This document shows, piece after piece, positions 1-15,624 of a stretch of 64,000 nt of DNA. Source of the stretch: Candidatus Woesearchaeota archaeon. Lineage in GTDB: Archaea; Nanobdellota; Nanobdellia; Woesearchaeales; 0-14-0-80-44-23. Each line of letters opens with the position of its first letter. Within the stretch, counting starts at the first letter, position 1. Below the pieces are notes generated by a model, which ran no database searches, had not been told where the DNA came from, and saw only the letters and a program-made list of their open reading frames with translations. Where the stretch lies: contig JAVZCZ010000001.1 in assembly GCA_038874135.1 (NCBI GenBank), positions 288,968 to 352,967 of the forward strand. The letters run 5' to 3'. A program made the translations under genes and the position numbers.

Positions 1-1793
1 CGTTTTATAAGTTGTGGAAACAACTTTTTATTTACCCAATAGGGATATGCATCAACATGCCACCACTTCTTATCTTCAGGAGAAGCATTTTGAAACAATT
101 CAAGATTCATATCTAAAATTCCTGCTTTGTAACCTTTGGCCCTCAAATAAGCTGATAAATAAGCTAGACTAAGAGGTGGAAATATTCCCCATGGAGGTGG
201 CATAATTAGAAGAACATCAACTCCGTCAAATCTTTTTTTGAAATCAAAATCTATCGGTATAATATTTGAATCTTTTGCTGGATCATAAAAATATTTTGAG
301 GTATCCCCGGTTGTATTTGAGTATTTATCTGAAACTTTTGAAACATTTGTTTTTTTATTGATGAGAGAATGTATTCTATTGAGTGTATATATTAAACCAT
401 TGTCTTTTATGAGTCTAAAAATCGTTTTAAGAGTTCTATTTCTACGATTGCAGTGTTCATGCCATTTTGTTTCAATATTTTTGACGGCCATTTCAAGTTC
501 TTGAGCTGAGAGGTAGTCTGTGCTTATTACGCTTTTGATGCTGCCATTATACTCACTCAGATTTTCAGTTATGAGTTTTTGCTGTTGTTTTAATTGTTCA
601 TAAAACTCAGTTCCTGGAAAGGGGGTAGCTATTGAAAACTGTGCTGAAAAAGGATCTATTTCATATAGGAATTTCTCAGTTTGAGATATGGTATCGTAGC
701 TTTCTCCAGGAAGTCCAAAAGTAAATGTTAAGTGGACTCTTATTCCAAGCTTTTTAGTGAATAGAATATTCTTCTTAGCTATCTTCAAATTAAGATTTTT
801 TTTAGAATTATCAACTATTTTTTGTGAGCCTGATTCAATCCCGTATTTAATTGCCCACAACCCTGCCTTTTTCATTGCAATCAATATTTCTTCATCCATT
901 AGGTCAGGTCTTGCCATTATTGCCCAGGGAACATTCAATTTTCTACGCTCAATTTCTCTGCATAGTTCCAGCATTCTTTCTTTACCGATATTGAATGTAT
1001 CGTCGTCAAAATAGATTGATTTGAAGCCCATTTTTTTGACTAGAAATTCCATCTCATTAACAACATCCTGTACACTTCTAATTCGGTAATTTCTTCCACT
1101 GTAAGCTATTTGAGGCCAGGCGCAGAATATGCAGTTAAAAGGGCATCCTCTACTCGCAAGCATTTGAGCACAGGGAAGAGGCATTTCTCCAGGAGAATCA
1201 AGGTATTTGTAAATAGGCACATCTCTTCTTTCAGGCCAGGGGAGCTCATCTAATCTACAAAGGGGACGCCGGTCTGTTCTTATTATAGATTCTGTTGTCC
1301 GGTATATTAAACCTTTTATTTTTTTGAAATCTGTTGTTTTTGTTTTTAGAGCTTCTGCAAGTTCTAGTAATGTGAATTCATACTCACCAAAAATGGCGAA
1401 ATCTATAAAAGGGTAAGAGATGAGGAACTCATCCCTTATCTCTATGCTTGGAGCTGCAACCGCTATATAAGTGTTGATATCTTTCTTTATTTTTTCCAAT
1501 AAGCACATATCATATTTTAAAGAGGGGGCTGAGGTTTCTGTGAATATCAGGTCTGGTCGGAATTCTCTTATTCTTTCTAAAAATTGGGCTTCGCTGATAT
1601 CTTCAGCTATTGCATCGATAAGTTTTGCTTCAAAACCATATTTTTTTAGAAGTGATGTAGCATATCCTAAAAAGAAGGGATAGGGTAGATAATCGCCTTC
1701 TTCATTAGTTTTGAGGTGGGGCCATCTGCTACCTGCCCGCACGCCTTTTCTGCCTTCTTGCTCCCACGGAAGGTTTGCTAAAAGTATTTTCAT
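1..1793 (-). CDS. Cobalamin (B12)-binding radical SAM protein, tandem-module form; C-terminus lies beyond the window start (partial)
   Basis: ATG at 1793 (minus). N-term MKILLANLPWEQEG... B12-binding signature, radical SAM motif SRGCPFNCIFC. I translated the minus frame down to position 1 without a stop, and the ORF track lists no complete minus ORF here. A second B12-binding-like start (VDVLLIMPPPWGIFPPLSLAYLSAYLRAKGY) begins near nt 220. Confidence 0.6.
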   Translation of the reverse strand, partial: MKILLANLPWEQEGRKGVRAGSRWPHLKTNEEGDYLPYPFFLGYATSLLKKYGFEAKLIDAIAEDISEAQFLERIREFRPDLIFTETSAPSLKYDMCLLEKIKKDINTYIAVAAPSIEIRDEFLISYPFIDFAIFGEYEFTLLELAEALKTKTTDFKKIKGLIYRTTESIIRTDRRPLCRLDELPWPERRDVPIYKYLDSPGEMPLPCAQMLASRGCPFNCIFCAWPQIAYSGRNYRIRSVQDVVNEMEFLVKKMGFKSIYFDDDTFNIGKERMLELCREIERRKLNVPWAIMARPDLMDEEILIAMKKAGLWAIKYGIESGSQKIVDNSKKNLNLKIAKKNILFTKKLGIRVHLTFTFGLPGESYDTISQTEKFLYEIDPFSAQFSIATPFPGTEFYEQLKQQQKLITENLSEYNGSIKSVISTDYLSAQELEMAVKNIETKWHEHCNRRNRTLKTIFRLIKDNGLIYTLNRIHSLINKKTNVSKVSDKYSNTTGDTSKYFYDPAKDSNIIPIDFDFKKRFDGVDVLLIMPPPWGIFPPLSLAYLSAYLRAKGYKAGILDMNLELFQNASPEDKKWWHVDAYPYWVNKKLFPQLIK

Positions 1794-1849
1794 TTTTCAG
1801 AGAAAAAAGCACTATGCTTATATATAAAACTTATTTTTATTATTTAAAA

Positions 1850-2698
1850 ATGAAAAAAGTAAAAAAGGTTTCCTTATACATCCCTGTTCTAAATCAGGAG
1901 AAATATCTAAAAAGGTGTCTTAAGGGCGTCCTATCACAAGATTATCCTATTTCAGAGATCATAATAGTGGATAATGGTTCAACAGATAGCTCAATTAAAA
2001 TCGTAAATCATTTTAGAAGAATAGATAAAAGAATTAAGGTAGTTAGGGAAAAAGAGAGGGGATTGGCTAATGCGAGAAATGCTGCATTAAAAGCAGCTAA
2101 ATCAACATTTATAGCGGCGGTAGATGCTGATTGTTTTCTAGAAAAGGATTGGCTTTCTAGAATTATGGCTAATTTTTCTGATAGAAAGATCGTTGGGGTT
2201 GGAGGTAAGCTTGTTGAAAATGATAAGTGGCGTGCTATTCATCTGAAACAGGAATGGGGAGAAGAGAAGTTGATAAATCCACCATTTCTGTTCGGATCAA
2301 ATACTGTATTCAGAACAAAGGTGCTTAAGAGCGTTGGTGGATATAATCCCATTTTTAAAACAAATTATGAAGATGTAGACATGTCTAGAAAGTTATTATC
2401 TAAAAATTTCAAACTAGTGTATGAGCCTAAAGCAGTTGCTCATCATATGAAAGTGGACAAAACTTTTTCTCTTTTACGCACTGTTTGGGCTTGGGGGTTT
2501 TACGGAAATGAGCCTAAGAACTTTGCGGATATACTGAAAAGAGTCATCTTTAATATCAAGATGCCCAGCAGTTTACTGTTTGAAGATTTAATAAATGGAA
2601 GGTTTACTTTTATTTTAACTGATCTACTCATATTTTTTTCTAACCCTTTTTTTGATTTAAAATATTATGTAGAGTACATCAAAAACAGATATTTTTAA
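1850..2698 (+). CDS. Family 2 glycosyltransferase (GT-A fold)
   Basis: MKKVKKVSLYIPVLNQEKYL...IIVDNGSTDSS...AVDADCF motifs typical of GT2. Longest ORF starts at TTG 1775; ATG at 1850 fits the usual GT2 N-terminus. Confidence 0.75.
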   Translation: MKKVKKVSLYIPVLNQEKYLKRCLKGVLSQDYPISEIIIVDNGSTDSSIKIVNHFRRIDKRIKVVREKERGLANARNAALKAAKSTFIAAVDADCFLEKDWLSRIMANFSDRKIVGVGGKLVENDKWRAIHLKQEWGEEKLINPPFLFGSNTVFRTKVLKSVGGYNPIFKTNYEDVDMSRKLLSKNFKLVYEPKAVAHHMKVDKTFSLLRTVWAWGFYGNEPKNFADILKRVIFNIKMPSSLLFEDLINGRFTFILTDLLIFFSNPFFDLKYYVEYIKNRYF

Positions 2699-2701
2699 AT
2701 A

Positions 2702-4672
2702 ATGCATAAATCTAAATGCCAGATTATGAGCAGAGTAATATTTTTTTCGCACAAAAAGATTTTTGAAAACGGGAATAATTCTGCTTCAGACATTAGATTT
2801 TTAGAAATGGCAAAAGTTCTTGTTCAAAATAATCATAAAGTAACGATTGCTGAAAAATTAAGAGAAAACGAAGAAGTCTTACTTGGAATAAGATTTGTTG
2901 GATGGAAAAATGTGCTTAGTTCTGACCTTTCAAAAGAGTATGATGTTGCAATAGTGCCAATTTGGACTACTGAGAAAGAAGTTCTAGACAGAATAAAAAA
3001 TATAGCGATTGTAGTAGACGCGTATGCTCCAATAGTTTTAGAGCAATCGAGTAGATATGCAAATAAAACGCCTAGTAGAAGAGAAGTTTCTGATTTTGTA
3101 AATTATGTTCTAACCAAATCCAATGTTTTATTATCAATGGCTGATTTTATTATGTGTGCTGGAGATAGACAAAAATTGTACTATACAGGAATATTAAGCG
3201 CCCTTGGAAGGATCAACCCGTTTTCATATGAAGAAAAGCTTATTGAATCAGTTCCATCAGGAGTTCATCTCAAAAGACCAGTTAATAAAAAAGAAGTATT
3301 TAAGAAAATAATTGGTGAAAATAAAAGAATAGTTTTGTGGCCCTCTACAATATTTCCTTGGTTTGATGCAGAAACTGCAATAAGAGCAATGAAGATAGTT
3401 GCAGAGGAAGAAAAAGAAGCGGTACTGGTATTCTTAGGCGCAACTGGTTTACCGAAAGACAGTTTAGGATATGAGGAAGCTGAGGAAGCGAAAAAACTTG
3501 CTGAAAAAGAAGGAATTTTGAATAAAAATGTTTTCTTTATAGAAAGAATTCCGTATCAAGATGTGGAATCTGCTTATTTAGAGTCGGAGATAGCATTAAT
3601 AACTTATCCGCCCGGATTTGAAACAGAGTTCGCATTTAGAACTAGAACTATTCATTGTATGTGGGCGGGTTTGCCGGTTATCTGCTCTGAAGGTGATGAA
3701 CTGGCTGAGATCATAAAAAGAGAAGGGCTCGGCGTAGTGGTTAAGCCTAAAGACCCTGAAGTACTTGCGAATTCAATAATAAGATTATTGAAAAATGAAC
3801 AACTAAGAGCTGAAATTGCAAAGAATGGACAAGAATATGTGTTTAAGAATTTTAGTTGGGAAAAAGTGTGTAAGCCATTAGAAGATTTTTGCAGTAAGCC
3901 CCGGATTAGTGAGTCAAAAAACTTTTTGACACCCTATGCAATAATAGATGAAAAGAATAGATTAATATGGCAGTTAGAGGAACATCTTGAGGACTATAAA
4001 TCAAAAGATGAAAAATCAAAACAAATAATACTGAAGAACGAGATGGAGATAGAAAAAGAGCAAAGAATAATTGAAGAGCAAAGTAAAGAAATAAAAAGAA
4101 TAAGCAGAAAATCTGAGCAAGTTATAAATGAGTTAAATAAAGAGATCAAGAATAGAGTTAAACACATAGAAAGTTTAGAAATAACAATACAACAACAAAA
4201 CCAAACAATCAAAAACCTAGAAAAAGAAATACAAAACAAAGAACAAACAATACAACAACAAAACCAAACAATCAAAAACCTAGAAAAAGAAATACAAAAC
4301 AAAGAACAAACAATACAACAACAAAACCAAACAATCAAAAACCTAGAAAAAGAAATACAAAACAAAGAACAAACAATACAACAACAAAACCAAACAATCA
4401 AAAACCTAGAAAAAGAAATACAAAACAAAGAACAAACAATACAACAACAAAACCAAACAATCAAAAACCTAGAAAAAGAAATACAAAACAAAGAACAAAC
4501 AATACAACAACAAAACCAAACAATCAAAAACCTAGAAAAAGAAATACAAAACAAAGAACAAACAATACAACAACAAAAAGAAAAACTAGATGAGATATTA
4601 AACTCGCGATGGTATAAGTTCGCTTCTAAAATTGATTCATTAAGCAAGAAATTAGGAATCATTAAAAAATAA
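2702..4672 (+). CDS. GT4-type glycosyltransferase with a C-terminal coiled-coil repeat extension
   Basis: Glycos_transf_1-like core (IERIPYQDVESAYLESEIALITYPPGFETEF...GLPVICSEGDELAEII) followed by about 6 perfect copies of a 21-aa unit TIQQQNQTIKNLEKEIQNKEQ. Confidence 0.7.
   Translation: MHKSKCQIMSRVIFFSHKKIFENGNNSASDIRFLEMAKVLVQNNHKVTIAEKLRENEEVLLGIRFVGWKNVLSSDLSKEYDVAIVPIWTTEKEVLDRIKNIAIVVDAYAPIVLEQSSRYANKTPSRREVSDFVNYVLTKSNVLLSMADFIMCAGDRQKLYYTGILSALGRINPFSYEEKLIESVPSGVHLKRPVNKKEVFKKIIGENKRIVLWPSTIFPWFDAETAIRAMKIVAEEEKEAVLVFLGATGLPKDSLGYEEAEEAKKLAEKEGILNKNVFFIERIPYQDVESAYLESEIALITYPPGFETEFAFRTRTIHCMWAGLPVICSEGDELAEIIKREGLGVVVKPKDPEVLANSIIRLLKNEQLRAEIAKNGQEYVFKNFSWEKVCKPLEDFCSKPRISESKNFLTPYAIIDEKNRLIWQLEEHLEDYKSKDEKSKQIILKNEMEIEKEQRIIEEQSKEIKRISRKSEQVINELNKEIKNRVKHIESLEITIQQQNQTIKNLEKEIQNKEQTIQQQNQTIKNLEKEIQNKEQTIQQQNQTIKNLEKEIQNKEQTIQQQNQTIKNLEKEIQNKEQTIQQQNQTIKNLEKEIQNKEQTIQQQNQTIKNLEKEIQNKEQTIQQQKEKLDEILNSRWYKFASKIDSLSKKLGIIKK
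4184..4580. repeat. Perfect 63-bp tandem repeat (about 6.3 copies) inside the GT4 gene, in frame
   Basis: The unit atacaacaacaaaaccaaacaatcaaaaacctagaaaaagaaatacaaaacaaagaacaaaca repeats head-to-tail with no mismatches visible. Confidence 0.9.
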
Positions 4673-4676
4673 GTGA

Positions 4677-5843
4677 TTAATGTTTTCTAAGAGACATTGC
4701 AGTTTCATACGCTTTTATAAGATTGTCTGTTGTAACATCCCAATTGTATTCCAACTCGGCTCTTTTTCTCGCTTCTTTTCCAAGCGTCTTTCTCATCTTT
4801 TCATCGTTTAAAAGAATTTTTATTCCTTTTGAAAGAGCTTCAACATCGCCTGCTTTAACCAGTATCCCTGCATTCCCCACCATTTTTTTAACTTCACCGA
4901 CATCACTAGCCACTATCGCTTTTCCTGCTGCCAAGTATTCAACTATTTTAAGAGGGCTCTTACACCTTGTTATCCCATTATCCTCAAAGCATGCCACTGC
5001 AATATCTGAAGCTGCAAGGTATTTTGGAACTTCCTCATGAGTCACATAACCAGTAAAAATTATCCTATCGGAAATTTCTAATTTTTCTGCCAAAGAAGTT
5101 AGTTTATGGGCTTCAGTTCCCCAGCCTACTATCATAAATGCTGCATCAGTTTTTTCATCAATAAGTTTTTTTGCAGCTCTTACAAAAAGCTCAGCATATT
5201 GAGCGCCATGCAATTGTCCTAGATATATTACAACAGGAGTGTTATGTTTTATTTTGTATTTATCCCTAATTTCACTCCCATCTATTTTTGGATTAAACTT
5301 ATTGAGATCTGCACCTACGTGAGCATCAAATATTCTTTCTTCCCTAACACCTAAAGAGAGAGCCAGATTTTTAATACCATCACTCGCAACTGAAACAGTA
5401 TCCACAAGCTTGGGAATAGTTCTTTCAACTAGGTTAAGATACTTTCCATAAAGCTGCGATGGAGGACTAAATAGATAAATTTGGTATTCCCAGTCATCCC
5501 AATCATAATGAACAGGCTTTCCAGCAAAATATGCCGCAAATATTGCCGGAAGAGATGCTATAGTAAAACATTTCTGGAAATGAATTACATCAGCCCACCT
5601 AGCAAGTTTATACATTTTATAAATATTTTTGAATATTGCCCATTTGCGTCTTTTAAAAGGAATCACTTCAAAATTGAAACGGTAATTGTTTAGCAGTCCT
5701 CTCTCCTGTTCAGGTAGTGGAAAATATACCAGCTTAACCTCATGTCCCTTCTCAGTCAACTTTTGTGCAATTTCAGTTATCCTAACAGTCCAGGGCTCTT
5801 TAGTTGAATAGATATCGTGAGGATGAACCATCAATATCTTCAT
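4677..5843 (-). CDS. GT4-type glycosyltransferase
   Basis: MKILMVHPHDIY... N-term, C-terminal GT1/GT4 signature (EDNGITRCKSPLKIVEYLAAGKAIVASDVGE). Longest ORF start is 5858. Confidence 0.7.
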   Translation of the reverse strand: MKILMVHPHDIYSTKEPWTVRITEIAQKLTEKGHEVKLVYFPLPEQERGLLNNYRFNFEVIPFKRRKWAIFKNIYKMYKLARWADVIHFQKCFTIASLPAIFAAYFAGKPVHYDWDDWEYQIYLFSPPSQLYGKYLNLVERTIPKLVDTVSVASDGIKNLALSLGVREERIFDAHVGADLNKFNPKIDGSEIRDKYKIKHNTPVVIYLGQLHGAQYAELFVRAAKKLIDEKTDAAFMIVGWGTEAHKLTSLAEKLEISDRIIFTGYVTHEEVPKYLAASDIAVACFEDNGITRCKSPLKIVEYLAAGKAIVASDVGEVKKMVGNAGILVKAGDVEALSKGIKILLNDEKMRKTLGKEARKRAELEYNWDVTTDNLIKAYETAMSLRKH

Positions 5844-5993
5844 TTTTAAACATCTCATTTATGAGCCGGGAAATAAGCTAAATCCTTTTCGCTTCTCCCA
5901 AAGCCACATATAAACATCTACTACCAATGTGAGTATAAGCAGGTAAATTAAAACAAAAAACCCAATAATTCTGGAATAATTTTTCATTTGTAA

Positions 5994-7106
5994 CTACCTA
6001 ATTAATCCTTTTGCTTTTGCTTCAGCATATGCCTTATCAAACTCATCCCGGGAATTAACTGAATTAGACCACCTAACCAGATCTTTTAAACCTTCCTCAA
6101 GAGTAACTCTCGGCATAAAATCTAGTCTGGATTTTAATTTGGATATGTCGGCAAAACAGTGCCTGACATCGCCCGGTCTAAATGTTTCTCTAATATCCGG
6201 CTTTAGATTGGCTCCATAGATTGAGATAAGCCTTTCAGCAACTTCTTTTATCGGAGTTGGAGTTCCTGAACCAACATTAAAAATCTGGTAATCCGCATTT
6301 TTTGATTCAAGAGAACGCACACAAACTTCTGCAACATCATATACTGATATGAAATCTCTAGTCTGAAGCCCGTCTTCATTAATTACGGGCGGGTTTCCAC
6401 TTTTTATTCTACTCATAAAAATAGCAGTAACTCCAGTATAAGGATTGTTAAGAGATTGCCTGGGACCATAAACATTAAAGAACCTAAGCGAAACAGATTT
6501 TATTCCATAAGTTGAACCAACTGTCATCACCATATCCTCCTGAGTTCTCTTGTTAATTGAATAGATTGAATTAGGAAAAGTATAATCATCTTCTGAAATG
6601 GCTACCGGAGTAATCTTACCATTGCATTTAGGACATAAAGGCTCCCAGATTTTTCTTTGAAGCTGCTCAACACTACGCAGCCCAGGCCTAACAAAGCCGC
6701 ACTTCTCGCAGTAATACTTTCCCTCACCATAACTGCTCATACTGGCAGCCACTATTATTTTTTTAACATTATTTTTTTTATTTATGATAAAATCAAGAAG
6801 GTTAGCTGTTCCCAGTACAGTATTATCTACATAATCATAAATTTTATACATGCTCTGAGCCACTCCAACAGAAGCCGCAAAATGAAAAACTGCATCAACA
6901 TCTTTCAGTGCCTTTTTCACATCATTTTTATTTCTCACATCTCCCCGAATAAACTCAGCATTCTGGTTTAAATAATCCGGCACCCCGCTGGGATGAACCT
7001 GCGGATCTAAGTTGTCTAAAATTCTCACATCATAACCACGCTCAACAAGTTTGTCCACTACGAAGCTACCTATAAAGCCTGCTCCACCTGTAACGAGAAC
7101 ATTCAT
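5994..7106 (-). CDS. NAD-dependent sugar epimerase/dehydratase (SDR family) with an internal CxxC...CxxC zinc-ribbon insertion
   Basis: MNVLVTGGAGFIGS Rossmann motif (ATG 7106; longest ORF starts at TTG 7127). Catalytic YxxxK region. Inserted segment YCEKCGFVRPGLRSVEQLQRKIWEPLCPKCNG. Confidence 0.7.
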   Translation of the reverse strand: MNVLVTGGAGFIGSFVVDKLVERGYDVRILDNLDPQVHPSGVPDYLNQNAEFIRGDVRNKNDVKKALKDVDAVFHFAASVGVAQSMYKIYDYVDNTVLGTANLLDFIINKKNNVKKIIVAASMSSYGEGKYYCEKCGFVRPGLRSVEQLQRKIWEPLCPKCNGKITPVAISEDDYTFPNSIYSINKRTQEDMVMTVGSTYGIKSVSLRFFNVYGPRQSLNNPYTGVTAIFMSRIKSGNPPVINEDGLQTRDFISVYDVAEVCVRSLESKNADYQIFNVGSGTPTPIKEVAERLISIYGANLKPDIRETFRPGDVRHCFADISKLKSRLDFMPRVTLEEGLKDLVRWSNSVNSRDEFDKAYAEAKAKGLIR

Positions 7107-7123
7107 TTTTTCACCTTCCCAAT

Positions 7124-8170
7124 TCAAACATTAAGAGATTCTTGAATAGTTGAGATATTCTGTTTTATCCATGCTAACATTATCTTAACGCCTTTTTGTG
7201 GCGAAGTAGAAGGCTTCCATGAAAAATGCTTTTCTGCCTTTCTTATGTCACTAATGTAAACCTTCTGGTCTCCTGCTCGCCAGGGCCCAAACTTATATGA
7301 AATCTTTTTTGAAAGAAGCTTCTCAAGAATTGAAATCAGCTCTAACAGAGAAAGCGTATTCTTTGGGCCTCCACCAATGTTATAGATTTGTCCCGCAGTT
7401 TTTTTACTCTTCAGAGCAAGTTCATAAGCTCTAACTAAATCCTTAACAAACAACACATCCCTAACCTGTTTGCCGTCTCCATAAAGAGTAAGAGGCAGGT
7501 TTAATGATGCAGCTATTGCAAACCAAGCCACCCAGCCCTGGTCTTCAATACCAAACTGCCTTGGACCATAAATGCAGGACTGCCTAAAAACAACTGTGGG
7601 CAGGCCATAAATGCGATAGTAATCTCTCACATACTGATCTGCACACCCCTTGCTGCAACCATAAGGACTGTGAAAGTCAATAGGCCTATGCTCGTCAATT
7701 GCAGTTATATTTTTATAAACATAGCGGCTCTGAGTTTCCGTTACCTTAACATCTTCCATCTGTCCATACACCTTGTTTGTGGAAGAGAAAATAAGCTTAG
7801 GGGTTTTCTTTGACTTTCTCGCCGCTTCAAGCACATTGAAAGTTCCTAATGCGTTGCTTTCAAAATCATATCTCGGATCAATTATTGAAGAAGTCATCGC
7901 TGTTTGTGCCGCCAAATGAATTACATAGTCTGTATTTCTAGTTTCTTTTTCAAGAAGCTTAATGTCAGTTCTTATGTCGGCTTTAACAAATCTGATCATA
8001 GGATAATCTTTTTTCAAAATTAAGAGATTATTCTTAGAACCTTTTCTTGAGAGATTATCTAACACGGTTACATCATATCCCTTATTAATGAAATATTCTG
8101 CAGTGTTAGAACCTATAAAGCCCGCTCCCCCCGTTATTAATATTCTAGGCCCATTCATTTTAGCGAACAT
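7124..8170 (-). CDS. NAD-dependent sugar epimerase/dehydratase (SDR family)
   Basis: RILITGGAGFIGSNTAEYFINKGYDVTVLDNL. Stop overlaps the downstream epimerase start, suggesting an operon. Confidence 0.7.
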   Translation of the reverse strand: MFAKMNGPRILITGGAGFIGSNTAEYFINKGYDVTVLDNLSRKGSKNNLLILKKDYPMIRFVKADIRTDIKLLEKETRNTDYVIHLAAQTAMTSSIIDPRYDFESNALGTFNVLEAARKSKKTPKLIFSSTNKVYGQMEDVKVTETQSRYVYKNITAIDEHRPIDFHSPYGCSKGCADQYVRDYYRIYGLPTVVFRQSCIYGPRQFGIEDQGWVAWFAIAASLNLPLTLYGDGKQVRDVLFVKDLVRAYELALKSKKTAGQIYNIGGGPKNTLSLLELISILEKLLSKKISYKFGPWRAGDQKVYISDIRKAEKHFSWKPSTSPQKGVKIMLAWIKQNISTIQESLNV

Positions 8171-8239
8171 ACATTTTTTAAGTAAACTTCCATTTCTATT
8201 TTTAAAACTTTTGATTTTTACAAGCTCTTGTGAAAAATC

Positions 8240-8935
8240 TCACTTTTTAATATATATCTTTACATTCCCAATCTGGTAAAGTGTGCTGTTTGCTATAAAA
8301 TCTTGAAATAGTTTTTTGCCATTACACTCAAGAGGGTATTGGGGCATGACTATAAGAAGACGCGGATTCCATGAATTAAGTTCAGCATCATGATTGACTG
8401 AGGAAGAGAACATAGGGTCACCTTCATAGCATACAAATCTGATAAAGTTGAATGGCTCACGATTGGAGAGTAAGTAAATCTCTCCATTCCAACCATAAAC
8501 TAAGATTCTATCTGTTGAGTTGGTATGCTCTTTTATAAAACTGATCACTCTAGTCTGTTCTTCTGCTCCCGAAAAATCGCTGTATGGGAAGTGAAATATC
8601 TTATAATTGATGTTATAATCAGGATATTGTTTAGAAGCGAAGAAAAATGTTGTAAACGATGTGATTAGAAGTAATATTACAAGTACTGATTTTTTATATC
8701 CATTCTTTGATTGAATTAAAAACTTCAATCCCCGTGCAGAGTAAAAGGCTATTGGTGGAAGTACAATTATAAAGTAGTGCCCGAATGAAGGAGGAATAAA
8801 ACAGATTAACAAACCAAACAGTAACCAAGATAAAAACAAAAAATTTATTTGTTTAGAATCTTTGCCATTCTGTATGAGAGATAAAATTCCTAAAAGGGAT
8901 AAGAACAAAAAACATAAAGATTCAAGGATTATCAT
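8240..8935 (-). CDS. Membrane protein, GT-C-like C-terminal module (paralog of the C-terminal third of 12910..14394)
   Basis: Shares the motif IPPSFGHYF plus ...QYP(D/N)xNINxK... with the 494-aa polytopic protein at 12910..14394. About 3 TM segments followed by a soluble domain. Confidence 0.4.
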   Translation of the reverse strand: MIILESLCFLFLSLLGILSLIQNGKDSKQINFLFLSWLLFGLLICFIPPSFGHYFIIVLPPIAFYSARGLKFLIQSKNGYKKSVLVILLLITSFTTFFFASKQYPDYNINYKIFHFPYSDFSGAEEQTRVISFIKEHTNSTDRILVYGWNGEIYLLSNREPFNFIRFVCYEGDPMFSSSVNHDAELNSWNPRLLIVMPQYPLECNGKKLFQDFIANSTLYQIGNVKIYIKK

Positions 8936-8997
8936 AAAATAACCTTCTGCTATTTATTTAGAAAAATTTTTATATGAACACCTTCTTTTTTAGTATA

Positions 8998-10494
8998 ATG
9001 AAAATTTTGCTCATAAACCCGCTTTTTTATTTTAATGGACATCTGTTTAAAAAGAATTACAAAGAGATTAATCTGGGATTATTATACTTAGCATCTGTTG
9101 CGCAAAAAGAAGGTTTTTCTGTTAAAATAATAGCTTTAAATAAACTAGAGACTGAGCGCATAATAAAAAGAGAAAAACCAGACATTGTTGGAATAAGTTG
9201 TATGATAGGACAACAACGGGCCGGTCTTACTATTGCAAAAAAGGTTAAAAAAGTCAATAAGAAGATTATCGTGATAGTGGGAGGGTATTATCCTACTTTC
9301 AGGTATAAAAAGATTTTGGAACAAATACCTGAAGTAGATGTAGTAGTGATAGGTGAAGGTGAAGAATCTTTTAGTGAACTATTAAGATTAATAAATCAGA
9401 AAAAGTTTAATTATAACAATCTAAAAAAGATTAAAGGGATTGCATTTAAAGAGAATAAAAAAATTGTTTTTACAGGAAATCGCGAATTACCGAATTTAGA
9501 TAAATTGCCTTGGCCTAGTAGGACGCTTTGGAGAACAGTTAATTTCTTTGCTTCTCGAGGGTGTAGATTTCGATGTAGGTACTGTTCAATAACCAAATTT
9601 TATAGAAAAGTTGAAAGGTTTAGATCAGTAAAAAATGTTATAGAAGAATTAAAGTGGTTAGAAAAGTTGGGGGAAAAAGATGTTAGTATTAATGACGATA
9701 ATTTCTTAGATAATTTGGATTGGTTTTATAAATTTAGGATATTTTATGTAAAGCAAAGATTAAAGATAAGGAGTGGGATAATGAGTAAACTATTAAATGT
9801 TTTAAGATTAAAAAAACTTAGGTATCTAAAGGAGTGTAATATTAATGAAATCAGTATAGGTTTGCAAGGGATAGGAGATGAAGAAAATAAATTTTTTAGA
9901 ACTGGACACACACTTAAATTATTAGAAGAATTTAATAAAAAACTAATAAGAGAAAACGTTGAATTTGATGCTATTAGTATATTTCTAATAATTAATAGTG
10001 GTGTCAAGCATGAGAACGAGGAATCAATTTTTAATAAGGTAAAGAGAGTAGTAGATCTTTTACCTGAAGGGGCTATCCCTAAGAAAAATAAGCTTGCATT
10101 GTACCCGGGAACAGATATTGCTGAATATTTCATAAAAAAGGGATACTACACAGAGAGTGAAAGCGTATTTAAAGATGATGACTATTTTAATTATTCTTAT
10201 GCAGACCTCAATGAAAGAAAACTTACTGACTTGATAGCTACTGTTGATCAACTATATGAAGAAAGAGCAAAAAGAGAAAGATGGAAAAAGATACCAAAGA
10301 GAATAAGTGCAAATTTTCTTAGTACGGTGAATGCTTACTTGATTATGCTAATGCGCTCTTCTATGAGTTTATGGTTGAAGATCCGTATACTTATGTTCAT
10401 AATATATATAGTTATTAAAGAGTTTGTTTCGTTCAGAAATCCAATTAAAAATGATTATAAATTGGGAAGAATGATCAAAATTAAATATTTCTGA
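8998..10494 (+). CDS. Cobalamin (B12)-binding radical SAM protein
   Basis: MKILLINPLFYF... B12-binding N-term. Radical SAM motif FASRGCRFRCRYCS (Cx3Cx2C). Longest ORF starts at 8974. Confidence 0.7.
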   Translation: MKILLINPLFYFNGHLFKKNYKEINLGLLYLASVAQKEGFSVKIIALNKLETERIIKREKPDIVGISCMIGQQRAGLTIAKKVKKVNKKIIVIVGGYYPTFRYKKILEQIPEVDVVVIGEGEESFSELLRLINQKKFNYNNLKKIKGIAFKENKKIVFTGNRELPNLDKLPWPSRTLWRTVNFFASRGCRFRCRYCSITKFYRKVERFRSVKNVIEELKWLEKLGEKDVSINDDNFLDNLDWFYKFRIFYVKQRLKIRSGIMSKLLNVLRLKKLRYLKECNINEISIGLQGIGDEENKFFRTGHTLKLLEEFNKKLIRENVEFDAISIFLIINSGVKHENEESIFNKVKRVVDLLPEGAIPKKNKLALYPGTDIAEYFIKKGYYTESESVFKDDDYFNYSYADLNERKLTDLIATVDQLYEERAKRERWKKIPKRISANFLSTVNAYLIMLMRSSMSLWLKIRILMFIIYIVIKEFVSFRNPIKNDYKLGRMIKIKYF

Positions 10495-10530
10495 AGAAGG
10501 GTTAGATGGGACTTGGACTTTAAATAAGTG

Positions 10531-10641
10531 CTATCCCAAACTGCTACTACCGGTAACGTGATAATTACACGAGCTAGTTATAGTATCAGTCATTGCAATC
10601 TTTCTAAGAGTGGGCTTTTTCCATACAATCTTGCGTTTCAT
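10531..10641 (-). CDS. Candidate RiPP precursor peptide (36 aa), unannotated small ORF
   Basis: My own translation: MKRKIVWKKPTLRKIAMTDTITSSCNYHVTGSSSLG. It lies 95 nt downstream of the HprK-like gene on the same strand. A TATA-like element (gtttatttataaac, 10661-10674) sits about 26 nt upstream of the ATG. The WKKP leader resembles the PqqA N-terminus. Confidence 0.35.
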   Translation of the reverse strand: MKRKIVWKKPTLRKIAMTDTITSSCNYHVTGSSSLG

Positions 10642-10736
10642 TTTATAAAAAATAATTATTGTTTATTTATAAACTTTTCGCAATAGCTTGGTTTAAACTT
10701 TTATGCTATTTTTAAACATGAAGATAAGCTAACCTT

Positions 10737-11588
10737 TTAAAGATTTGATGAATTGTTTGTAACAAAATTTGTTACGAAGGATACGACAGAATTGTCTTTT
10801 TTGAATTTAAGAGTATACGCTTTAACTGAGTTAACACACGACATCACCAATTTTATGAATTTGGCCTTTGATTCAAAGCTGTAAGGTATTATTGAATTTT
10901 TTAATAAATTATTCAAAAAACTATTTATTCTTATATCTTGTATACTATTATGATTAGATTTTTTAATGAAGAATATATATGCGAGTTCTCCTTTTTTATT
11001 AGAAAAAGATTTCGCACTGCTCTGTGCAGGAGTTCCATAACAGTAAAATTTTCCATTTTTTTTAATGATTATATTAAGTTCGTCGCTAAAACAATTAAAT
11101 CCTGATTTTTTAAACAGTTTACATAGAGTACTTTTTCCTGTTCCGCAGGGACCGACAAATAGAACTACTCTTTTGCGATTGTGCAAATCAAACATAACTC
11201 CGGAGGAATGAACTAAAAAGCTATTTTTTTTCGTCAAATACATCGCCAGTATTCTTTTATTAAAAATGTTTTCAATATCTGTCTTATTAGAAAAGAAGCT
11301 AACTTTATTTTTTTCCTTTATTACGCCCCACTCGCCAGTTTTAGGTTTTATAATTAACTTAGAATTATATTCTAAAAATTTAACTGCAAAGTCTCTGCTC
11401 ACAAGTTTAGATCCTGGAGGGACACAAAAATATCTATAATTCTTCATTAAGAAGGTATAATCCTCTTTTTTATTAGTTCTAAATTGAGCAAATCTATTTA
11501 AGTTAAGATTTTTTTCAGAAACTACCTTAACTACTACTGGACCTATTTTTATTTTAAATTTTTTCATATAAATCACAGTTAATAACAA
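10737..11588 (-). CDS. HPr kinase-related P-loop protein (HprK-like, peptide-maturation associated)
   Basis: Walker A FVGPCGTGKSTLCKLF, in HprK C-terminal-domain-like context. Same strand as the rSAM/SPASM and PqqD genes, and overlaps the rSAM stop. Confidence 0.55.
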   Translation of the reverse strand: MLLTVIYMKKFKIKIGPVVVKVVSEKNLNLNRFAQFRTNKKEDYTFLMKNYRYFCVPPGSKLVSRDFAVKFLEYNSKLIIKPKTGEWGVIKEKNKVSFFSNKTDIENIFNKRILAMYLTKKNSFLVHSSGVMFDLHNRKRVVLFVGPCGTGKSTLCKLFKKSGFNCFSDELNIIIKKNGKFYCYGTPAQSSAKSFSNKKGELAYIFFIKKSNHNSIQDIRINSFLNNLLKNSIIPYSFESKAKFIKLVMSCVNSVKAYTLKFKKDNSVVSFVTNFVTNNSSNL

Positions 11589-12580
11589 TTGTTAAAAAAG
11601 AGTTTAGCAAGTTTACACAAGCGTGGAATCTTTGCTGAGTTAGATGATTTTGGATCGAAGGATTTGATTTCTTGTTCTGCAAAGCCAGGACACCAAAAAC
11701 ATATATTACGGTATTTACAACTAGCACACTTTTTGAATTTCTTTATGTAACTTTGTCTAATGTATTTTAAAGTTTTAAAAGCAATTCTCAGATTCGGAAG
11801 AGCTTTTACTCTTTTTTTTCTTAAGAGGAAGCAGAGCCCCATATTTCCTTTTGAATCAATATGAAAAGAGCGGATACCTGCACTGCAATTAAAAACTTCA
11901 GCTGAATGTTTTAATACTTTTAAGTTTATTTTGTATCTATTACAAAACAAATCAAAAAGATCGTGTGTTGATAAACTAACCTTTCTAGCATTTTTTCCGA
12001 TGATAATTGGATTAAACTCTATCCTTTTTTTTGTAAAGTTCAAACTAAGATTATCAAGTTTTTTAAAGTATTTCTTTAACTGATAAAGAGGAAGCGTTCT
12101 GAGTTCTAGATTAAATTTCTTTAAGGATTTAAGATTATTTAGTACAGTAGTGTATGCTGCTTTTCCAGTTATTTTTCTATACGTAATGTTATCGACTCCG
12201 TACAATGTGATTCTTATAAGCATAGGAGGTTTTTTCTTAAAAGTATCTAATATTTTTTTTGTAACAAAAGACCCATTTGAGTTTATAGTTATTCTATTAC
12301 CAAACAGGGTGTACGCATAATTATAAATTTCTAAAAAGTTTGGATGAAGTAGAGGTTCTCCTCCTGTTAGAATTATATTTGTAACACCGAGTCGATAGGC
12401 CTGTTTAAGAATCTTTTTAAATTTGATCACGGGTAATTCTGAGCTAGTAGCTTGTTTAATATTCTTAAAATAGCAATGTTTACATTTGAAGTTGCATTTC
12501 TGTGTTATTTCCAAATGAAGAAGATTAGGGGGAAATTCCTGATTTAAGATAGTTTCAGATTCTTTATCGTAGCTGTACAT
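11579..12580 (-). CDS. Radical SAM peptide maturase with C-terminal SPASM-type Cys cluster
   Basis: LEITQKCNFKCKHCYF (Cx3Cx2C), TGGEPLL. C-terminal CASCKYRNICFWCPGFAEQE auxiliary cluster motif. Confidence 0.7.
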   Translation of the reverse strand: MYSYDKESETILNQEFPPNLLHLEITQKCNFKCKHCYFKNIKQATSSELPVIKFKKILKQAYRLGVTNIILTGGEPLLHPNFLEIYNYAYTLFGNRITINSNGSFVTKKILDTFKKKPPMLIRITLYGVDNITYRKITGKAAYTTVLNNLKSLKKFNLELRTLPLYQLKKYFKKLDNLSLNFTKKRIEFNPIIIGKNARKVSLSTHDLFDLFCNRYKINLKVLKHSAEVFNCSAGIRSFHIDSKGNMGLCFLLRKKRVKALPNLRIAFKTLKYIRQSYIKKFKKCASCKYRNICFWCPGFAEQEIKSFDPKSSNSAKIPRLCKLAKLFFNNCY

Positions 12581-12581
12581 T

Positions 12582-12854
12582 TTAGGATTTTATTAAGATT
12601 TTTAAAGACAGTGCTTTTTTAATAAAGTTCATAAAATCTTTATCTAATTTACTTGCACTAATATCAAATTTCCGGCTTAGAATTTTTTTAGTTTTAGAAA
12701 TCCCATTTTTTACAACACCTTTTAATATGATCGATGCAGTTTTATTTAAGATAAAGTAATTAGGAGAATTTTTTCTAGTTAGTATCAGAAAGTACTGATT
12801 ATTATTAACTGAATAGAATCTGGCTTTTCCATTAAAAAAATATTTTTTTGACAT
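12582..12854 (-). CDS. PqqD-family RiPP recognition element (peptide chaperone)
   Basis: 90 aa. YFILNKTASIILKGVVKNGISKTKKILSRKFDISASKLDKDFMNFIKKAL matches the PqqD fold pattern. The radical SAM gene starts 1 nt downstream. Confidence 0.6.
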   Translation of the reverse strand: MSKKYFFNGKARFYSVNNNQYFLILTRKNSPNYFILNKTASIILKGVVKNGISKTKKILSRKFDISASKLDKDFMNFIKKALSLKILIKS

Positions 12855-12909
12855 AATTAATATTAAAAAGGCAGTAAGCTTTTTAAATATTGCTATTTTA
12901 ATTTTTAAA

Positions 12910-14394
12910 GTGAATAAGATAAATAATACAAAAGAAAGAATTGATAAAGAACTAGTTTTTCTAATAATCTTATCAATTTTTTTAAGATTTATATGGCTAT
13001 ATGCTGCTATAGAACGAGATGAAGGAATTTTTGGTTATAGTGCATTTAAACTATCGATTAATGAATTAAAAATTGTGGATAATAAAATTCCTATTGTTTA
13101 TATCATCTATTTATTAATAATGATTATACACAAATTACTTTCCTTTAATTTTCCTGTAATTATTAGTGTACGAATTGTTAATAACCTCCTATTCCTAATA
13201 GCAGTAGTTTGCTTATATAGGTTTTTTTCAGAGGAAAAAAGAGAAATTGCCTTTTTTTCTACTATCTTTTTCATAATATTCATGAATCTTCCTGTTTTTG
13301 AAGGACAACTTGCTATGACTGAATCATTGGGAATGAATTTTTTTGTGTTAGGATTAATATATATGCTTAGATATGCTAAACATTATGAACCTGCTTATTT
13401 TAGAATATCATTTTTTTTCTTTTTACTGGCCGCTTTATTAAAGTACCCTTTTTTGTTCCTTTCAGTTCATACGATTATATTTTTTATAAAAAACAGAACA
13501 GGTTTTAAAAAAGTTGCTCTTTTTTTAATTACTTATTTTATAACAGCGATTCTGATGCTTGGTTTCTATTTTATTGCATTTCCTGAAAATGTTTTATTTT
13601 TTATTATTGAAAGTATAAACGTATTAAATGAGGTCCCTGAAATTTACAGTTTTAGTAGTCTTAAGTTAGTTCTTATCGAGGGTTTCTTTTTTATAATTTT
13701 AGTTGTTTTAGGTGTTTTAGAGTATTATAAAGTAGAGAAAAAGGAGAAAATTTTTTATTTGTTTAAGAATATGTTGCTTATCTCATTGGTACTCTCATTG
13801 ATTCCTCCTTCGTTTGGTCATTATTTTCTGATAAATTCAATAGCTGTAGCATTTTTTGCTGGAGTTGGAATACTATCCTTAAAAAGGTTTAGCATTAAAT
13901 TAGTGAAGTATATCATAATTGTAATTCTTTTCCTTGCAATTATAATCTCAGTTTATTTTTCAATGTTACAATATCCTAATCTTAACATTAATTTTAAAGG
14001 AATTAACGTAGTATATAATGATTTCTTAGATTTGAAACAGCAGTTAGAAGTTTCAAAATTTTTAGAAAATCATATTAAACAAAACGAGAGCTTTGCCATG
14101 TGTGGTTTTGATGGAACTTTAGGTTGGCTGTCAGAACGGCGTATTTTTTCTGGAGTTAGAAAATTTTGTTATATTCCAAACGGAAAAGAAAATGAAAATA
14201 AAGTTTTAAAAATATTAAAAGATAGATACCTTTCAAGAATTATAATTTATGATGTAGCTAAAATTTTAAGTTGCGAACTACCAGATAATATTAAATATCT
14301 GGTTCTATTTACTAATGCATATGATGAAACTTTGTTTAAATGTACTGGTAAGATTGAGATGAAATATGATAATTTATTGATTTGCAAATGTTAA
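12910..14394 (+). CDS. Polytopic membrane protein, GT-C (PMT/ArnT-like) glycosyltransferase candidate
   Basis: About 11 predicted TM helices followed by a C-terminal soluble domain. GTG start. Shares the IPPSFGHYF module with 8240..8935. Confidence 0.45.
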   Translation: MNKINNTKERIDKELVFLIILSIFLRFIWLYAAIERDEGIFGYSAFKLSINELKIVDNKIPIVYIIYLLIMIIHKLLSFNFPVIISVRIVNNLLFLIAVVCLYRFFSEEKREIAFFSTIFFIIFMNLPVFEGQLAMTESLGMNFFVLGLIYMLRYAKHYEPAYFRISFFFFLLAALLKYPFLFLSVHTIIFFIKNRTGFKKVALFLITYFITAILMLGFYFIAFPENVLFFIIESINVLNEVPEIYSFSSLKLVLIEGFFFIILVVLGVLEYYKVEKKEKIFYLFKNMLLISLVLSLIPPSFGHYFLINSIAVAFFAGVGILSLKRFSIKLVKYIIIVILFLAIIISVYFSMLQYPNLNINFKGINVVYNDFLDLKQQLEVSKFLENHIKQNESFAMCGFDGTLGWLSERRIFSGVRKFCYIPNGKENENKVLKILKDRYLSRIIIYDVAKILSCELPDNIKYLVLFTNAYDETLFKCTGKIEMKYDNLLICKC

Positions 14395-15548: not shown

Positions 15549-15624
15549 GTAGATTAGAATGATTTTAGATAACAATTTAAATATGAAAAATATTTTATAA
15601 TCCATACCTAAAAGAGGAAAATTT

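What the first reader, a model, noticed from the sequence alone, without database searches (positions are those of the whole stretch)
4184..4580. Perfect 63-bp x 6.3 in-frame tandem repeat forming a coiled-coil tail on a GT4 glycosyltransferase
Six head-to-tail copies of a 63-bp unit with no visible mismatches encode (TIQQQNQTIKNLEKEIQNKEQ)n, a heptad-like Gln/Lys/Glu-rich coiled coil appended to a GT4 catalytic domain. Perfect identity implies very recent expansion or ongoing copy-number change by slipped-strand or recombination events. This is a contingency-locus-like feature that could tune oligomerisation or localisation of a surface-glycan enzyme. Coiled-coil tails are not a standard part of GT4 enzymes.
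Basis: seen in the sequence. Interest (0 to 1): 0.5.

Follow-up and report, generated by a model that had tools for sequence, protein, structure and literature searches.

The report
Repeat-built stalk on a glycan enzyme
A sugar-adding enzyme of a tiny hot-spring archaeon carries a long rod-like stalk built partly from six identical 21-residue repeats; related genomes have only one copy, so the repeat probably varies the length of a "molecular ruler" that sets surface-sugar chain length.

Summary
Window 4183-4578 holds 6.3 perfect copies of a 63-bp unit, in frame in ORF 2726-4672 (648 aa). The protein is a GT4/GT-B glycosyltransferase (aa 1-395), then an all-helical stalk (aa 403-625) with Ile at every heptad 'a' position in the repeat, then a conserved basic C-terminal helix.

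The source is most likely a Woesearchaeales (DPANN) MAG from a Tengchong hot spring, assembled from short reads. Three other assemblies are 99.7-99.95% identical over about 8 kb but carry 1.3 copies. A k-mer test shows this is not a simple collapse at the final k. It also shows that only "at least 2.3 copies" is secure for the window.

Near-identical and 37-40%-identical loci place the gene beside Wzm/Wzt and Wzt_C genes. In bacteria, an extended coiled coil in that setting marks chain-length molecular rulers (WbdD, WbbB). Relatives keep both ends and vary the stalk from about 80 to 870 aa, often through their own tandem repeats. Some are fused as GT4-coil-GT2-GT2.

Best reading (inferred, confidence 0.5): a ruler stalk that changes by about 3.1 nm per unit without changing heptad register. 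This is a new variant of a known kind, and moderately interesting.

The parts
2726..4672 (+). Gene for the GT4 glycosyltransferase with a coiled-coil stalk. It is 648 aa from Met at 2726. An upstream in-frame ATG at 2702 would give 656 aa.
   Evidence: ORF. All orthologs start MSRVIFF/MSKVI. The 648-aa product is exactly NCBI MEM3370390.1.
2726..3910 (+). GT-B (GT4-type) catalytic domain, aa 1-395.
   Evidence: Pfam PF00534 E 8e-20 and PF13692. AF2 pLDDT is above 90 over 1-390. Foldseek matches MshA, BshA, WaaG and PimA at E 1e-17 to 1e-12.
3932..4600 (+). Helical stalk, aa 403-625 (predicted coiled coil, about 33 nm if straight).
   Evidence: AF2 gives helices 403-518 and 523-625. A single heptad register runs from about aa 454 to 632. 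The length is computed.
4183..4578 (+). Perfect 63-bp x 6.3 tandem repeat. It encodes 21 aa (3 heptads) per unit, at aa 487-617.
   Evidence: Ile occupies 19 of 19 'a' positions, and 'd' positions are Q/L/K.
4595..4669 (+). Conserved C-terminal motif ILNSRWYKFASKIDSLSKKLGIIKK, a basic amphipathic helix (aa 624-648). It is a putative membrane or partner anchor.
   Evidence: I, L, N, S, R, Y, K, A, D, G and K are invariant in 5 orthologs. AF2 gives a separate helix at 628-642. Hydrophobic moment is about 0.5.
1775..2698 (+). Adjacent GT2 glycosyltransferase, a candidate partner or polymerase.
   Evidence: Pfam PF00535 E 2e-32. A GT2 gene is next to the GT4-stalk gene in L001-L004 and L008. The two types are fused in P0142 and P0162.
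4677..5858 (-). Convergent second GT4 glycosyltransferase.
   Evidence: Pfam PF00534 and PF13439. It is conserved in L001-L003.
5994..8170 (-). Two NDP-sugar epimerase/dehydratase genes that supply sugar precursors.
   Evidence: Pfam Epimerase and GDP_Man_Dehyd; NCBIfam dTDP-glucose 4,6-dehydratase and GalE-like hits, below equivalog cutoffs.

Best explanation
The repeat lengthens a rigid alpha-helical coiled-coil stalk. The stalk separates an N-terminal GT4 catalytic head from a conserved basic amphipathic C-terminal helix, which I take to be the membrane or partner anchor. The enzyme belongs to an ABC-transporter-dependent (Wzm/Wzt with Wzt_C carbohydrate-binding module) glycan assembly cluster of a Woesearchaeales (DPANN) archaeon.

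By analogy with the bacterial rulers WbdD, WbbB and K. pneumoniae O4 ORF7 / O7 ORF6, the stalk holds the GT4 head at a fixed distance from the membrane-proximal polymerising enzymes. The head can then act only on lipid-linked chains that have grown long enough. Its most likely action is adding a terminating or capping sugar. Stalk length would therefore set glycan chain length.

Each 63-bp unit adds exactly three heptads (21 aa, about 3.1 nm), so copy-number change alters length without disturbing the coiled-coil register. Recombination or slippage between perfect 63-bp copies produces alleles of different stalk length: 1.3 copies (about 17.5 nm) against the assembled 6.3 copies (about 33 nm).

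Shown here: the repeat, the domain architecture, the heptad phasing, the gene context in relatives, the allele difference between assemblies, and the stalk-length variability across the family. Inferred: oligomeric coiled coil, membrane anchoring, terminator activity, and any effect on chain length.
For: (1) The repeat is perfect and in frame.
(2) The domain layout is a GT-B head, a long helix and a short terminal helix.
(3) Ile sits at every 'a' position, and 21 aa equals 3 heptads with one register through the array.
(4) Loci L001/L002, 99.95% identical to window 1-4263, carry Wzt (ABC_tran + Wzt_C) and a second Wzt_C protein 7-9 kb upstream of the gene.
(5) Orthologous loci at 37-40% identity (L004, L008) keep GT4-stalk, GT2, Wzm, Wzt and a Wzt_C protein together. 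A coil-less family member in Cellulomonas overlaps the end of wzm.
(6) Kelly et al. 2024 (PMC11231755) state that an extended coiled coil is 'a characteristic marker' of this assembly strategy. [quoted passage not shown] WbdD has N-terminal catalytic sites, a coiled-coil ruler and a C-terminal amphipathic membrane helix plus a polymerase recruitment site. WbdD's C-terminal domain is 249 aa (aa 460-708; PMC3482155), against 246 aa here.
(7) Both ends are conserved while the stalk varies: 126, 144, 174, 175, 231 and 245 aa in close orthologs, and 80-873 aa across the subfamily. Independent tandem repeats have periods of 7, 11, 18, 21, 23, 25, 28 and 46 aa.
(8) P0142 and P0162 are GT4-coil-GT2-GT2 fusions. 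This is the layout of the known terminator-coil-polymerase proteins.
(9) 1.3-copy alleles occur in three other assemblies that differ by fewer than 10 substitutions over about 8 kb. They are not explained by simple k-mer collapse at k = 99 or 127.
Against: There is no sequence homology to WbdD, WbbB or the GT99/GT137 terminators, so the analogy is architectural only. Donor, acceptor and terminator activity are unknown. Coil-less members of the same GT4 subfamily, and actinobacterial GT2-GT4 fusions without a coil, exist. The family's basic job may therefore be elongation rather than termination.

The repeat core is weakly hydrophobic (d = Q/L/K), and the oligomeric state was not tested. The AF2 monomer folds the helix back at aa 519-522. 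I read that as a monomer artefact because the break lies inside identical repeats, but an antiparallel hairpin is not excluded. Several orthologs' repeat units (18, 25, 46 aa) are not heptad multiples, so register conservation is not a general rule.

Wzm/Wzt lie outside this window, and linkage for this genome is inferred from near-identical contigs. The copy number 6 is not verifiable from a short-read assembly. Archaeal ABC-transporter-dependent glycan pathways have not been characterised experimentally: I found no paper on archaeal Wzm/Wzt coiled-coil systems and none on repeat-driven ruler variation.
Confidence: 0.5

Rival explanations
1. The helical tail is a neutral stalk. It is only an oligomerisation or scaffold element whose exact length does not matter. 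The A-rich low-complexity coding sequence is prone to duplication, and heptad-compatible insertions are simply tolerated.
For: The unit is 68% A. Tails in relatives vary enormously, by units that are often not heptad multiples (18, 25, 46 aa), which suggests weak constraint on length and phase. Coil-less family members function without any stalk.
Against: The stalk is retained in many lineages, with conserved sequence at both ends. It consistently co-occurs with Wzm/Wzt/Wzt_C. In the only experimentally studied systems, coiled-coil length determines chain length.
Confidence: 0.27
2. The GT4 head is a tethered elongating enzyme, part of the polymerase together with the neighbouring GT2. The stalk acts as a leash that lets it follow the growing non-reducing end, so stalk length would cap the maximum reach rather than gate termination.
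For: GT2-GT4 fusions without a coil are common in Actinobacteria. A GT2 gene is always adjacent. A coil-less homologue in Cellulomonas sits in a cluster where a separate coiled-coil methyltransferase looks like the terminator.
Against: A head on a rigid 17-33 nm stalk could not reach short lipid-linked primers. [quoted passage not shown] The GT4-coil-GT2-GT2 fusions place the GT4 where terminators sit.
Confidence: 0.15
3. The copy-number difference is an assembly artefact. Either the 6.3-copy array is over- or under-counted by SPAdes loop resolution, or the 1.3-copy contigs are collapses carried over from lower-k iterations, and there is no real polymorphism.
For: All four assemblies are Illumina/SPAdes with k = 21-127. 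The array (396 bp) probably exceeds the Illumina read length (read length assumed, not checked). Alleles with n>=2 are indistinguishable by k-mers at k<=127, and the 1.3 allele is a valid path at k<=77.
Against: At k = 99 and k = 127 the 1.3-copy allele needs 17 and 45 k-mers that do not exist in any allele with 2.3 or more copies. The same 1.3 allele was recovered independently from three samples. The window's array needs all-repeat 127-mers, which exist only with 2.3 or more copies. Diverged, imperfect repeats in orthologs cannot be collapse artefacts.
Confidence: 0.12

Closest known systems
WbdD of E. coli O9a / K. pneumoniae O3 (chain-terminating methyltransferase-kinase with coiled-coil molecular ruler)
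   Same: The order of parts is the same: N-terminal catalytic head, an extended coiled coil of about 250 aa, then a C-terminal membrane-proximal region. Both lie in a Wzm/Wzt pathway whose Wzt carries a C-terminal carbohydrate-binding module. In WbdD, coil length sets chain length.
   Different: The head here is a GT4 glycosyltransferase, not a kinase/methyltransferase, and no sequence homology was detected. The organism is an archaeon. The stalk is partly a perfect tandem repeat with natural copy-number alleles. Oligomeric state and function are untested.
WbbB (K. pneumoniae O12 / Raoultella terrigena), K. pneumoniae O4 ORF7 (GT137 Kdo transferase + coiled coil) and O7 ORF6 (terminator-coil-2xGT2)
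   Same: A glycosyltransferase or other terminator sits at the distal end of a coiled coil. Relatives of the window protein (P0142, P0162) have the single-polypeptide layout GT4-coil-GT2-GT2, like O7 ORF6 and WbbB.
   Different: The GT families differ (GT99 and GT137 against GT4). The window protein has no polymerase modules of its own. Its cap chemistry is unknown.
In-frame VNTR size variation of bacterial surface proteins (e.g. streptococcal alpha C protein, Mycoplasma Vlp); from my own knowledge, not tested here
   Same: Perfect in-frame tandem repeats give length alleles within a population by recombination or slippage.
   Different: Here the variable protein is a cytoplasmic biosynthetic enzyme, so the repeat would change a product (glycan length) rather than the exposed protein itself.
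PglH 'ruler helix' (Campylobacter GT4; PMC5792488, abstract and title seen)
   Same: A GT4 enzyme with a built-in counting device for glycan length.
   Different: As I recall from the paper (not read here), PglH uses a short helix within the catalytic domain to count three sugars. It has no long external coiled coil and no repeats.

Membership tests
GT4 / Glycos_transf_1 retaining GT-B glycosyltransferases | Pfam PF00534/PF13692 match above the gathering score | tested here: met
   PF00534 scores 71.4 bits (cutoff 26.4) and PF13692 scores 50.7 bits (cutoff 27).
GT4 / Glycos_transf_1 retaining GT-B glycosyltransferases | Two-Rossmann-domain GT-B fold resembling solved GT4 enzymes | tested here: met
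   AF2 pLDDT is above 90 for aa 1-390. Foldseek PDB matches MshA, BshA, WaaG, PimA and PglA with E 1e-17 to 1e-12 and TM (target) 0.7-0.79.
GT4 / Glycos_transf_1 retaining GT-B glycosyltransferases | Canonical E-x7-E motif | tested here: inconclusive
   E299 is invariant in 75 family members, but the position 8 residues on is R307. A nearly invariant D310 follows instead. The variant motif was read from the alignment only.
Coiled-coil molecular-ruler proteins of ABC-transporter-dependent glycan assembly (WbdD/WbbB class) | Encoded in a cluster with wzm/wzt | tested here: met
   Wzt lies 7-9 kb upstream in L001/L002, which are 99.95% identical to the window. Wzm, Wzt and Wzt_C lie within 5 kb in orthologous loci L004 and L008. 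These genes are not inside this window itself.
Coiled-coil molecular-ruler proteins of ABC-transporter-dependent glycan assembly (WbdD/WbbB class) | Transporter carries or is accompanied by a Wzt_C carbohydrate-binding module that reads a terminal cap | tested here: met
   PF14524 Wzt_C is present in L001/L002 (fused and stand-alone), L004 and L008 at 87.5 bits. Cap recognition itself was not tested.
Coiled-coil molecular-ruler proteins of ABC-transporter-dependent glycan assembly (WbdD/WbbB class) | Extended coiled coil between the catalytic head and the membrane-proximal end | tested here: met
   There are 223 helical residues, a heptad register with Ile at 'a' and a conserved basic terminal helix. 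Oligomerisation is not tested.
Coiled-coil molecular-ruler proteins of ABC-transporter-dependent glycan assembly (WbdD/WbbB class) | Catalytic head adds a chain-terminating residue | not testable with these tools
   This needs biochemistry. The only support is positional analogy with the GT4-coil-GT2-GT2 fusions.
Coiled-coil molecular-ruler proteins of ABC-transporter-dependent glycan assembly (WbdD/WbbB class) | Coil length determines glycan chain length | not testable with these tools
   This needs genetics and glycan sizing.
Coiled-coil molecular-ruler proteins of ABC-transporter-dependent glycan assembly (WbdD/WbbB class) | Sequence homology to WbdD/WbbB or shared C-terminal motif with bacterial coiled-coil terminators | tested here: not met
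   No WbdD or WbbB chain appears among the PDB sequence or fold hits. By eye, ILNSRGYKIA..IDR resembles GSVSWRVTRPLR of a Cellulomonas coiled-coil methyltransferase, but hhalign does not support this.
Contingency (phase-variable) loci | Repeat-number change shifts the reading frame or promoter spacing to switch expression on or off | tested here: not met
   The unit is 63 bp (3 x 21) and lies inside the ORF, so every copy number stays in frame.
Contingency (phase-variable) loci | Copy-number polymorphism among near-identical genomes | tested here: met
   The count is 6.3 (secure as at least 2.3) against 1.3 in three assemblies with fewer than 10 substitutions over about 8 kb. Read-level confirmation is lacking.

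The most novel reading that the evidence does not exclude
A natural, recombination-driven VNTR inside a glycan molecular ruler. Populations of a host-dependent DPANN archaeon would then carry stalk-length alleles (about 17 to 33 nm) that produce surface polysaccharides of different chain length. This would be a 'length-phase variation' of the cell surface, achieved by varying the measuring device rather than the surface protein. It would also be the first ruler-type ABC-transporter glycan pathway described in Archaea.
Probability: 0.3. Interest if true: 0.75.

Novelty: new variant of a known kind. Interest (0 to 1): 0.57.

Why it matters
In bacteria, coiled-coil rulers are the established way of setting chain length in ABC-transporter-dependent glycan synthesis, but their length has only been varied by engineering. 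This locus offers natural alleles that differ by whole three-heptad units in otherwise near-identical genomes, in a domain of life (Archaea, DPANN) where this pathway has not been studied.

If the ruler reading holds, three things follow. It gives a ready-made allelic series for testing the ruler model. It shows that tandem repeats can tune a biosynthetic product dimension. It also suggests that surface-glycan length is a variable trait in episymbiotic archaea, relevant to host attachment or virus defence.

The wider GT4 subfamily, with stalks of 80-870 aa built from repeats of 7-46 aa, shows this is a recurrent evolutionary solution.

Tried and rejected
(1) I scanned genome contigs and JGI metagenome contigs for the exact 63-bp unit and found nothing. 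No further copy-number alleles could be collected that way.

(2) Exact look-ups of the 648-aa product in the gene-position index failed. The source was identified instead through the cluster listing and a paper supplement.

(3) A profile search with the 45-aa C-terminal motif against 5.8 billion proteins gave 11 candidates, none scoring. The query was too short, and one capped search was wasted.

(4) hhalign of the archaeal C-terminal motif against the Cellulomonas coiled-coil methyltransferase did not detect the resemblance seen by eye. I treat it as a lead only.

(5) Pfam coiled-coil-like hits (AAA_13, CEP85, SMC and others) were rejected as compositional matches to any long helix.

(6) The minus-strand ORF 3994..4662 was rejected. 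Its translation is a Cys/Phe-rich low-complexity mirror of the repeat, while the plus strand has the conserved domain and motif.

(7) The AF2 helix break at aa 519-522 was rejected as a real hairpin loop, because it falls inside identical repeat units near the midpoint of the helix.

(8) tRNA and Rfam scans show nothing RNA-related at the locus.

(9) Hagelueken 2015 (PMC4650267) is not held, so ruler facts are cited from Kelly 2024 and Hagelueken 2012.
Full report
OBSERVATION. Tandem Repeats Finder finds one outstanding array in the window: 4183..4578, period 63, 6.3 copies, 100% matches, no indels, score 792. Exact unit copies start at 4184, 4247, 4310, 4373, 4436 and 4499, followed by a 17-bp partial copy. 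The array is codon-aligned in the + strand ORF 2702..4672 and encodes TIQQQNQTIKNLEKEIQNKEQ six times. All orthologs begin MSRVIFF, so the real start is Met at 2726 (648 aa). That exact product is NCBI MEM3370390.1. The unit is 68% A (A43 C13 T4 G3). The antisense ORF 3994..4662 is a low-complexity mirror image and is not credible.

THE PROTEIN. Residues 1-395 are a GT4-type GT-B glycosyltransferase. Pfam Glycos_transf_1 scores 71.4 bits against a cutoff of 26.4. The AlphaFold2 model has pLDDT above 90. Its best PDB fold matches are MshA, BshA, WaaG, PimA and PglA. No NCBIfam equivalog is reached, so donor and acceptor are unknown.

Residues 403-625 are modelled as helix, and a separate helix covers 628-642. 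The model has a break at 519-522. It lies inside identical repeat units near the helix midpoint, and I read it as the usual fold-back of a monomer model. A single heptad register runs from about aa 454 to 632. Within the repeat, all 19 'a' positions are Ile and the 'd' positions are Gln/Leu/Lys. Because 21 aa equals three heptads, adding or removing a unit leaves the register unchanged.

The last 25 residues (ILNSRWYKFASKIDSLSKKLGIIKK) are basic and amphipathic, with a hydrophobic moment of about 0.5. They are the most conserved part of the tail in orthologs.

SOURCE AND ALLELES. The 648-aa protein sits on a 909,956-bp contig labelled Candidatus Woesearchaeota. The supplement of Qi et al. 2024 lists a single-scaffold MAG of exactly that size: DRTY-6_201705_bins_90, JAVZCZ, GTDB Woesearchaeales family 0-14-0-80-44-23, GC 40.8%. 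It also lists a SPAdes node of that length. Window genes such as the archaeal-type CCA-adding enzyme and RFC fit an archaeon.

A 543-aa protein (P0001) differs by one substitution and lacks exactly five units. It is encoded on three other assemblies from the same spring field: JAVZHW (DRTY-6, 2019-01), JAVYQW (DRTY-1, 2019-12) and JAVZQY (DRTY-7, 2018-03). The first two are classified in the same genus. The third is an 8.5-kb contig in a Nitrososphaeria bin and is probably misbinned. Their DNA is unit + 17 bp, with flanks identical to the window. Outside the array the four assemblies differ by 2 substitutions in window 1-4263 and about 6 in 4498-8000.

All of these are Illumina/SPAdes assemblies with k = 21..127. 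A k-mer test gives two results.
- The 1.3-copy allele contains 17 (k = 99) and 45 (k = 127) k-mers that are absent from any allele with 2.3 or more copies. It is therefore not a simple collapse at the final k values, and it was obtained three times independently.
- All alleles with 2 or more full copies share the same k-mer set at k<=127. The '6' in the window therefore rests on paired-end loop resolution.

The polymorphism (1.3 against at least 2.3 copies) is reasonably secure. The exact number needs reads.

CONTEXT. The window begins 7.3 kb downstream of the start of L001/L002. In those near-identical contigs the region upstream of the window holds a 645-aa Wzt (ABC_tran + Wzt_C), a Pol-beta-type nucleotidyltransferase-like gene, a stand-alone Wzt_C protein, three rSAM/SPASM genes and a 1004-aa double B12-rSAM. 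These are followed by GT2, the GT4-stalk gene, a convergent GT4 and two sugar epimerase/dehydratases (window genes).

Two more distant Woesearchaeota-type loci keep the module together.
- L004 (40% identity) has GT4-stalk, GT2, nucleotidyltransferase-like, Wzm, Wzt, Wzt_C protein and GT4.
- L008, from a Kamchatka MAG (37% identity), has the same order.

A coil-less bacterial member of the subfamily in Cellulomonas terrae starts inside the end of wzm, with a Wzt+Wzt_C nearby. The subfamily is therefore a regular component of ABC-transporter-dependent glycan pathways.

FAMILY-WIDE PATTERN. A profile search of 1.84 billion representatives finds 861 proteins at E<=1e-30. The baseline form is about 445 aa with a 45-60-aa basic amphipathic tail.

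A subset, including the closest relatives, has Pro/Gly-poor helical tails of 80-270 aa, and one has 873 aa (P0131). These tails end in a conserved basic motif. In close orthologs the spacer between the FCxKP end of the GT domain and the ILNSR motif is 126, 144, 174, 175, 231 and 245 aa.

Tails carry lineage-specific tandem repeats of 7 (P0127, about 17 copies), 11, 18, 21, 23, 25, 28 and 46 aa. The stalk is therefore an insertion between a conserved head and a conserved end, and it has repeatedly changed length by tandem duplication.

P0142 and P0162 are GT4-coil/linker-GT2-GT2 single polypeptides, and P0145, P0161 and P0196 are GT4-GT2.

MECHANISM. Kelly et al. 2024 (PMC11231755) summarise the bacterial systems. 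An extended coiled coil is 'a characteristic marker' of ABC-transporter-dependent assembly with chain termination. [quoted passage not shown] Coil length and polymerase occupancy set the chain-length distribution. K. pneumoniae O7 ORF6 and WbbB have terminator-coil-polymerase-GT layouts. WbdD is trimeric with a 249-aa C-terminal coiled-coil domain (aa 460-708; PMC3482155).

The window protein has the same order of parts, a similar tail size (246 aa) and the same genetic company, and relatives are fused to two GT2 modules. I therefore propose that it is a ruler-type enzyme. The GT4 head, held 17-33 nm from its anchor (0.1485 nm per residue), would act only on chains long enough to reach it, most likely adding a terminal sugar that Wzt_C modules recognise.

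The 63-bp repeat changes the ruler in 3.1-nm, register-preserving steps. This is inference by architecture and context. No homology to WbdD or WbbB exists, and activity, oligomerisation and anchoring are untested. Confidence is about 0.5.

RIVALS.
(i) The stalk is a neutral scaffold that tolerates slippage in A-rich DNA (0.27). Non-heptad repeat units in relatives and the existence of coil-less members favour this. Conserved ends, persistent context and the bacterial precedent argue against it.
(ii) The GT4 is a tethered elongating enzyme working with the adjacent GT2 (0.15). Coil-less GT2-GT4 fusions in Actinobacteria favour this. So does a Cellulomonas cluster in which a separate coiled-coil methyltransferase, ending ...GSVSWRVTRPLR, looks like the terminator.
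(iii) The copy-number difference is an assembly artefact (0.12). See the k-mer argument above.

COMPARISON AND NOVELTY. The protein is a member of GT4 by sequence and fold. It works like, but is not homologous to, the WbdD/WbbB class. It is not a contingency locus in the strict sense, because every copy number is in frame.

I found no paper on archaeal Wzm/Wzt coiled-coil systems or on natural repeat-driven variation of a glycan ruler in the held library. My rating is a new variant of a known kind, with interest of about 0.57. The repeat itself is ordinary biology. A naturally length-polymorphic ruler in a DPANN archaeon would interest glycobiologists, and it is directly testable.

Noticed in passing
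window 8000-17500 (compare L001/L002 15000-21600): Similarity to the near-identical MAG contigs drops from about 99.8% to about 85% at 8000-8855 and then vanishes. The window-specific segment has very low GC (0.26-0.30). It carries a B12-rSAM, an HprK-related-kinase-like gene, an rSAM, a PMT_2-like membrane protein and a YcaO. The other strains carry PMT_2, rSAMs, ScmC and PqqD instead. It looks like a strain-variable island (glycan or RiPP-like) with a sharp recombination edge.
   Followed up: partly
L001/L002 1-2332; L004 12908-17387; L008 13186-17630: The Wzt carbohydrate-binding module (Wzt_C) also occurs as a separate protein of 272-440 aa with a helical N-terminal half. In L004 and L008 the ABC ATPase itself lacks the module. 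A Pol-beta-type nucleotidyltransferase-like gene is conserved next to wzm in L002 and L004. The gene at the same position in L008 had no Pfam hit. Its role, possibly cap chemistry, is unknown.
   Followed up: partly
proteins P0142, P0162 (also P0145, P0161, P0196): These are single polypeptides with the same GT4 head, a coil/linker with a S-x-R-G-W-[RK] motif, and one or two GT2 modules. This architecture matches K. pneumoniae O7 ORF6 and WbbB.
   Followed up: partly
proteins P0127, P0131, P0155, P0004, P0123, P0111: Other family members build their stalks from their own repeats. P0127 has a 7-aa unit EKEQIIN about 17 times. Others have 28-aa, 25-aa and 11-aa units. P0131 has an 873-aa tail, about 120 nm if it were a straight helix.
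   Followed up: partly
L006 3588-4898 (Cellulomonas terrae): A Methyltransf_24 protein next to Wzt has a C-terminal coiled coil ending GSVSWRVTRPLRAVRRNVGRG. By eye this resembles the archaeal ILNSRGYKIASKIDRLGRAIG motif, but hhalign does not support it.
   Followed up: partly
window 53661-62870 (+): This is a 3069-aa ORF with Ig-like domains (Ig_Rha78A_N, Big_3_3, Big_13, Y_Y_Y). It is a giant, probably surface-exposed protein, which is notable in a genome of about 0.9 Mb.
   Followed up: no
window 19550-21487 (-): An amino-acid permease (aa 8-413) is fused to a SAM-dependent methyltransferase domain (aa 454-610) in one 645-aa ORF.
   Followed up: no
public records of P0001 / L003: The taxon labels conflict. 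The 1.3-copy protein is named 'Nitrososphaeria archaeon' at NCBI, while two of its MAGs are GTDB Woesearchaeales. The 8.5-kb contig JAVZQY010000064 sits in a Nitrososphaeria bin (GC 35%, 400 scaffolds) and is probably misbinned.
   Followed up: partly
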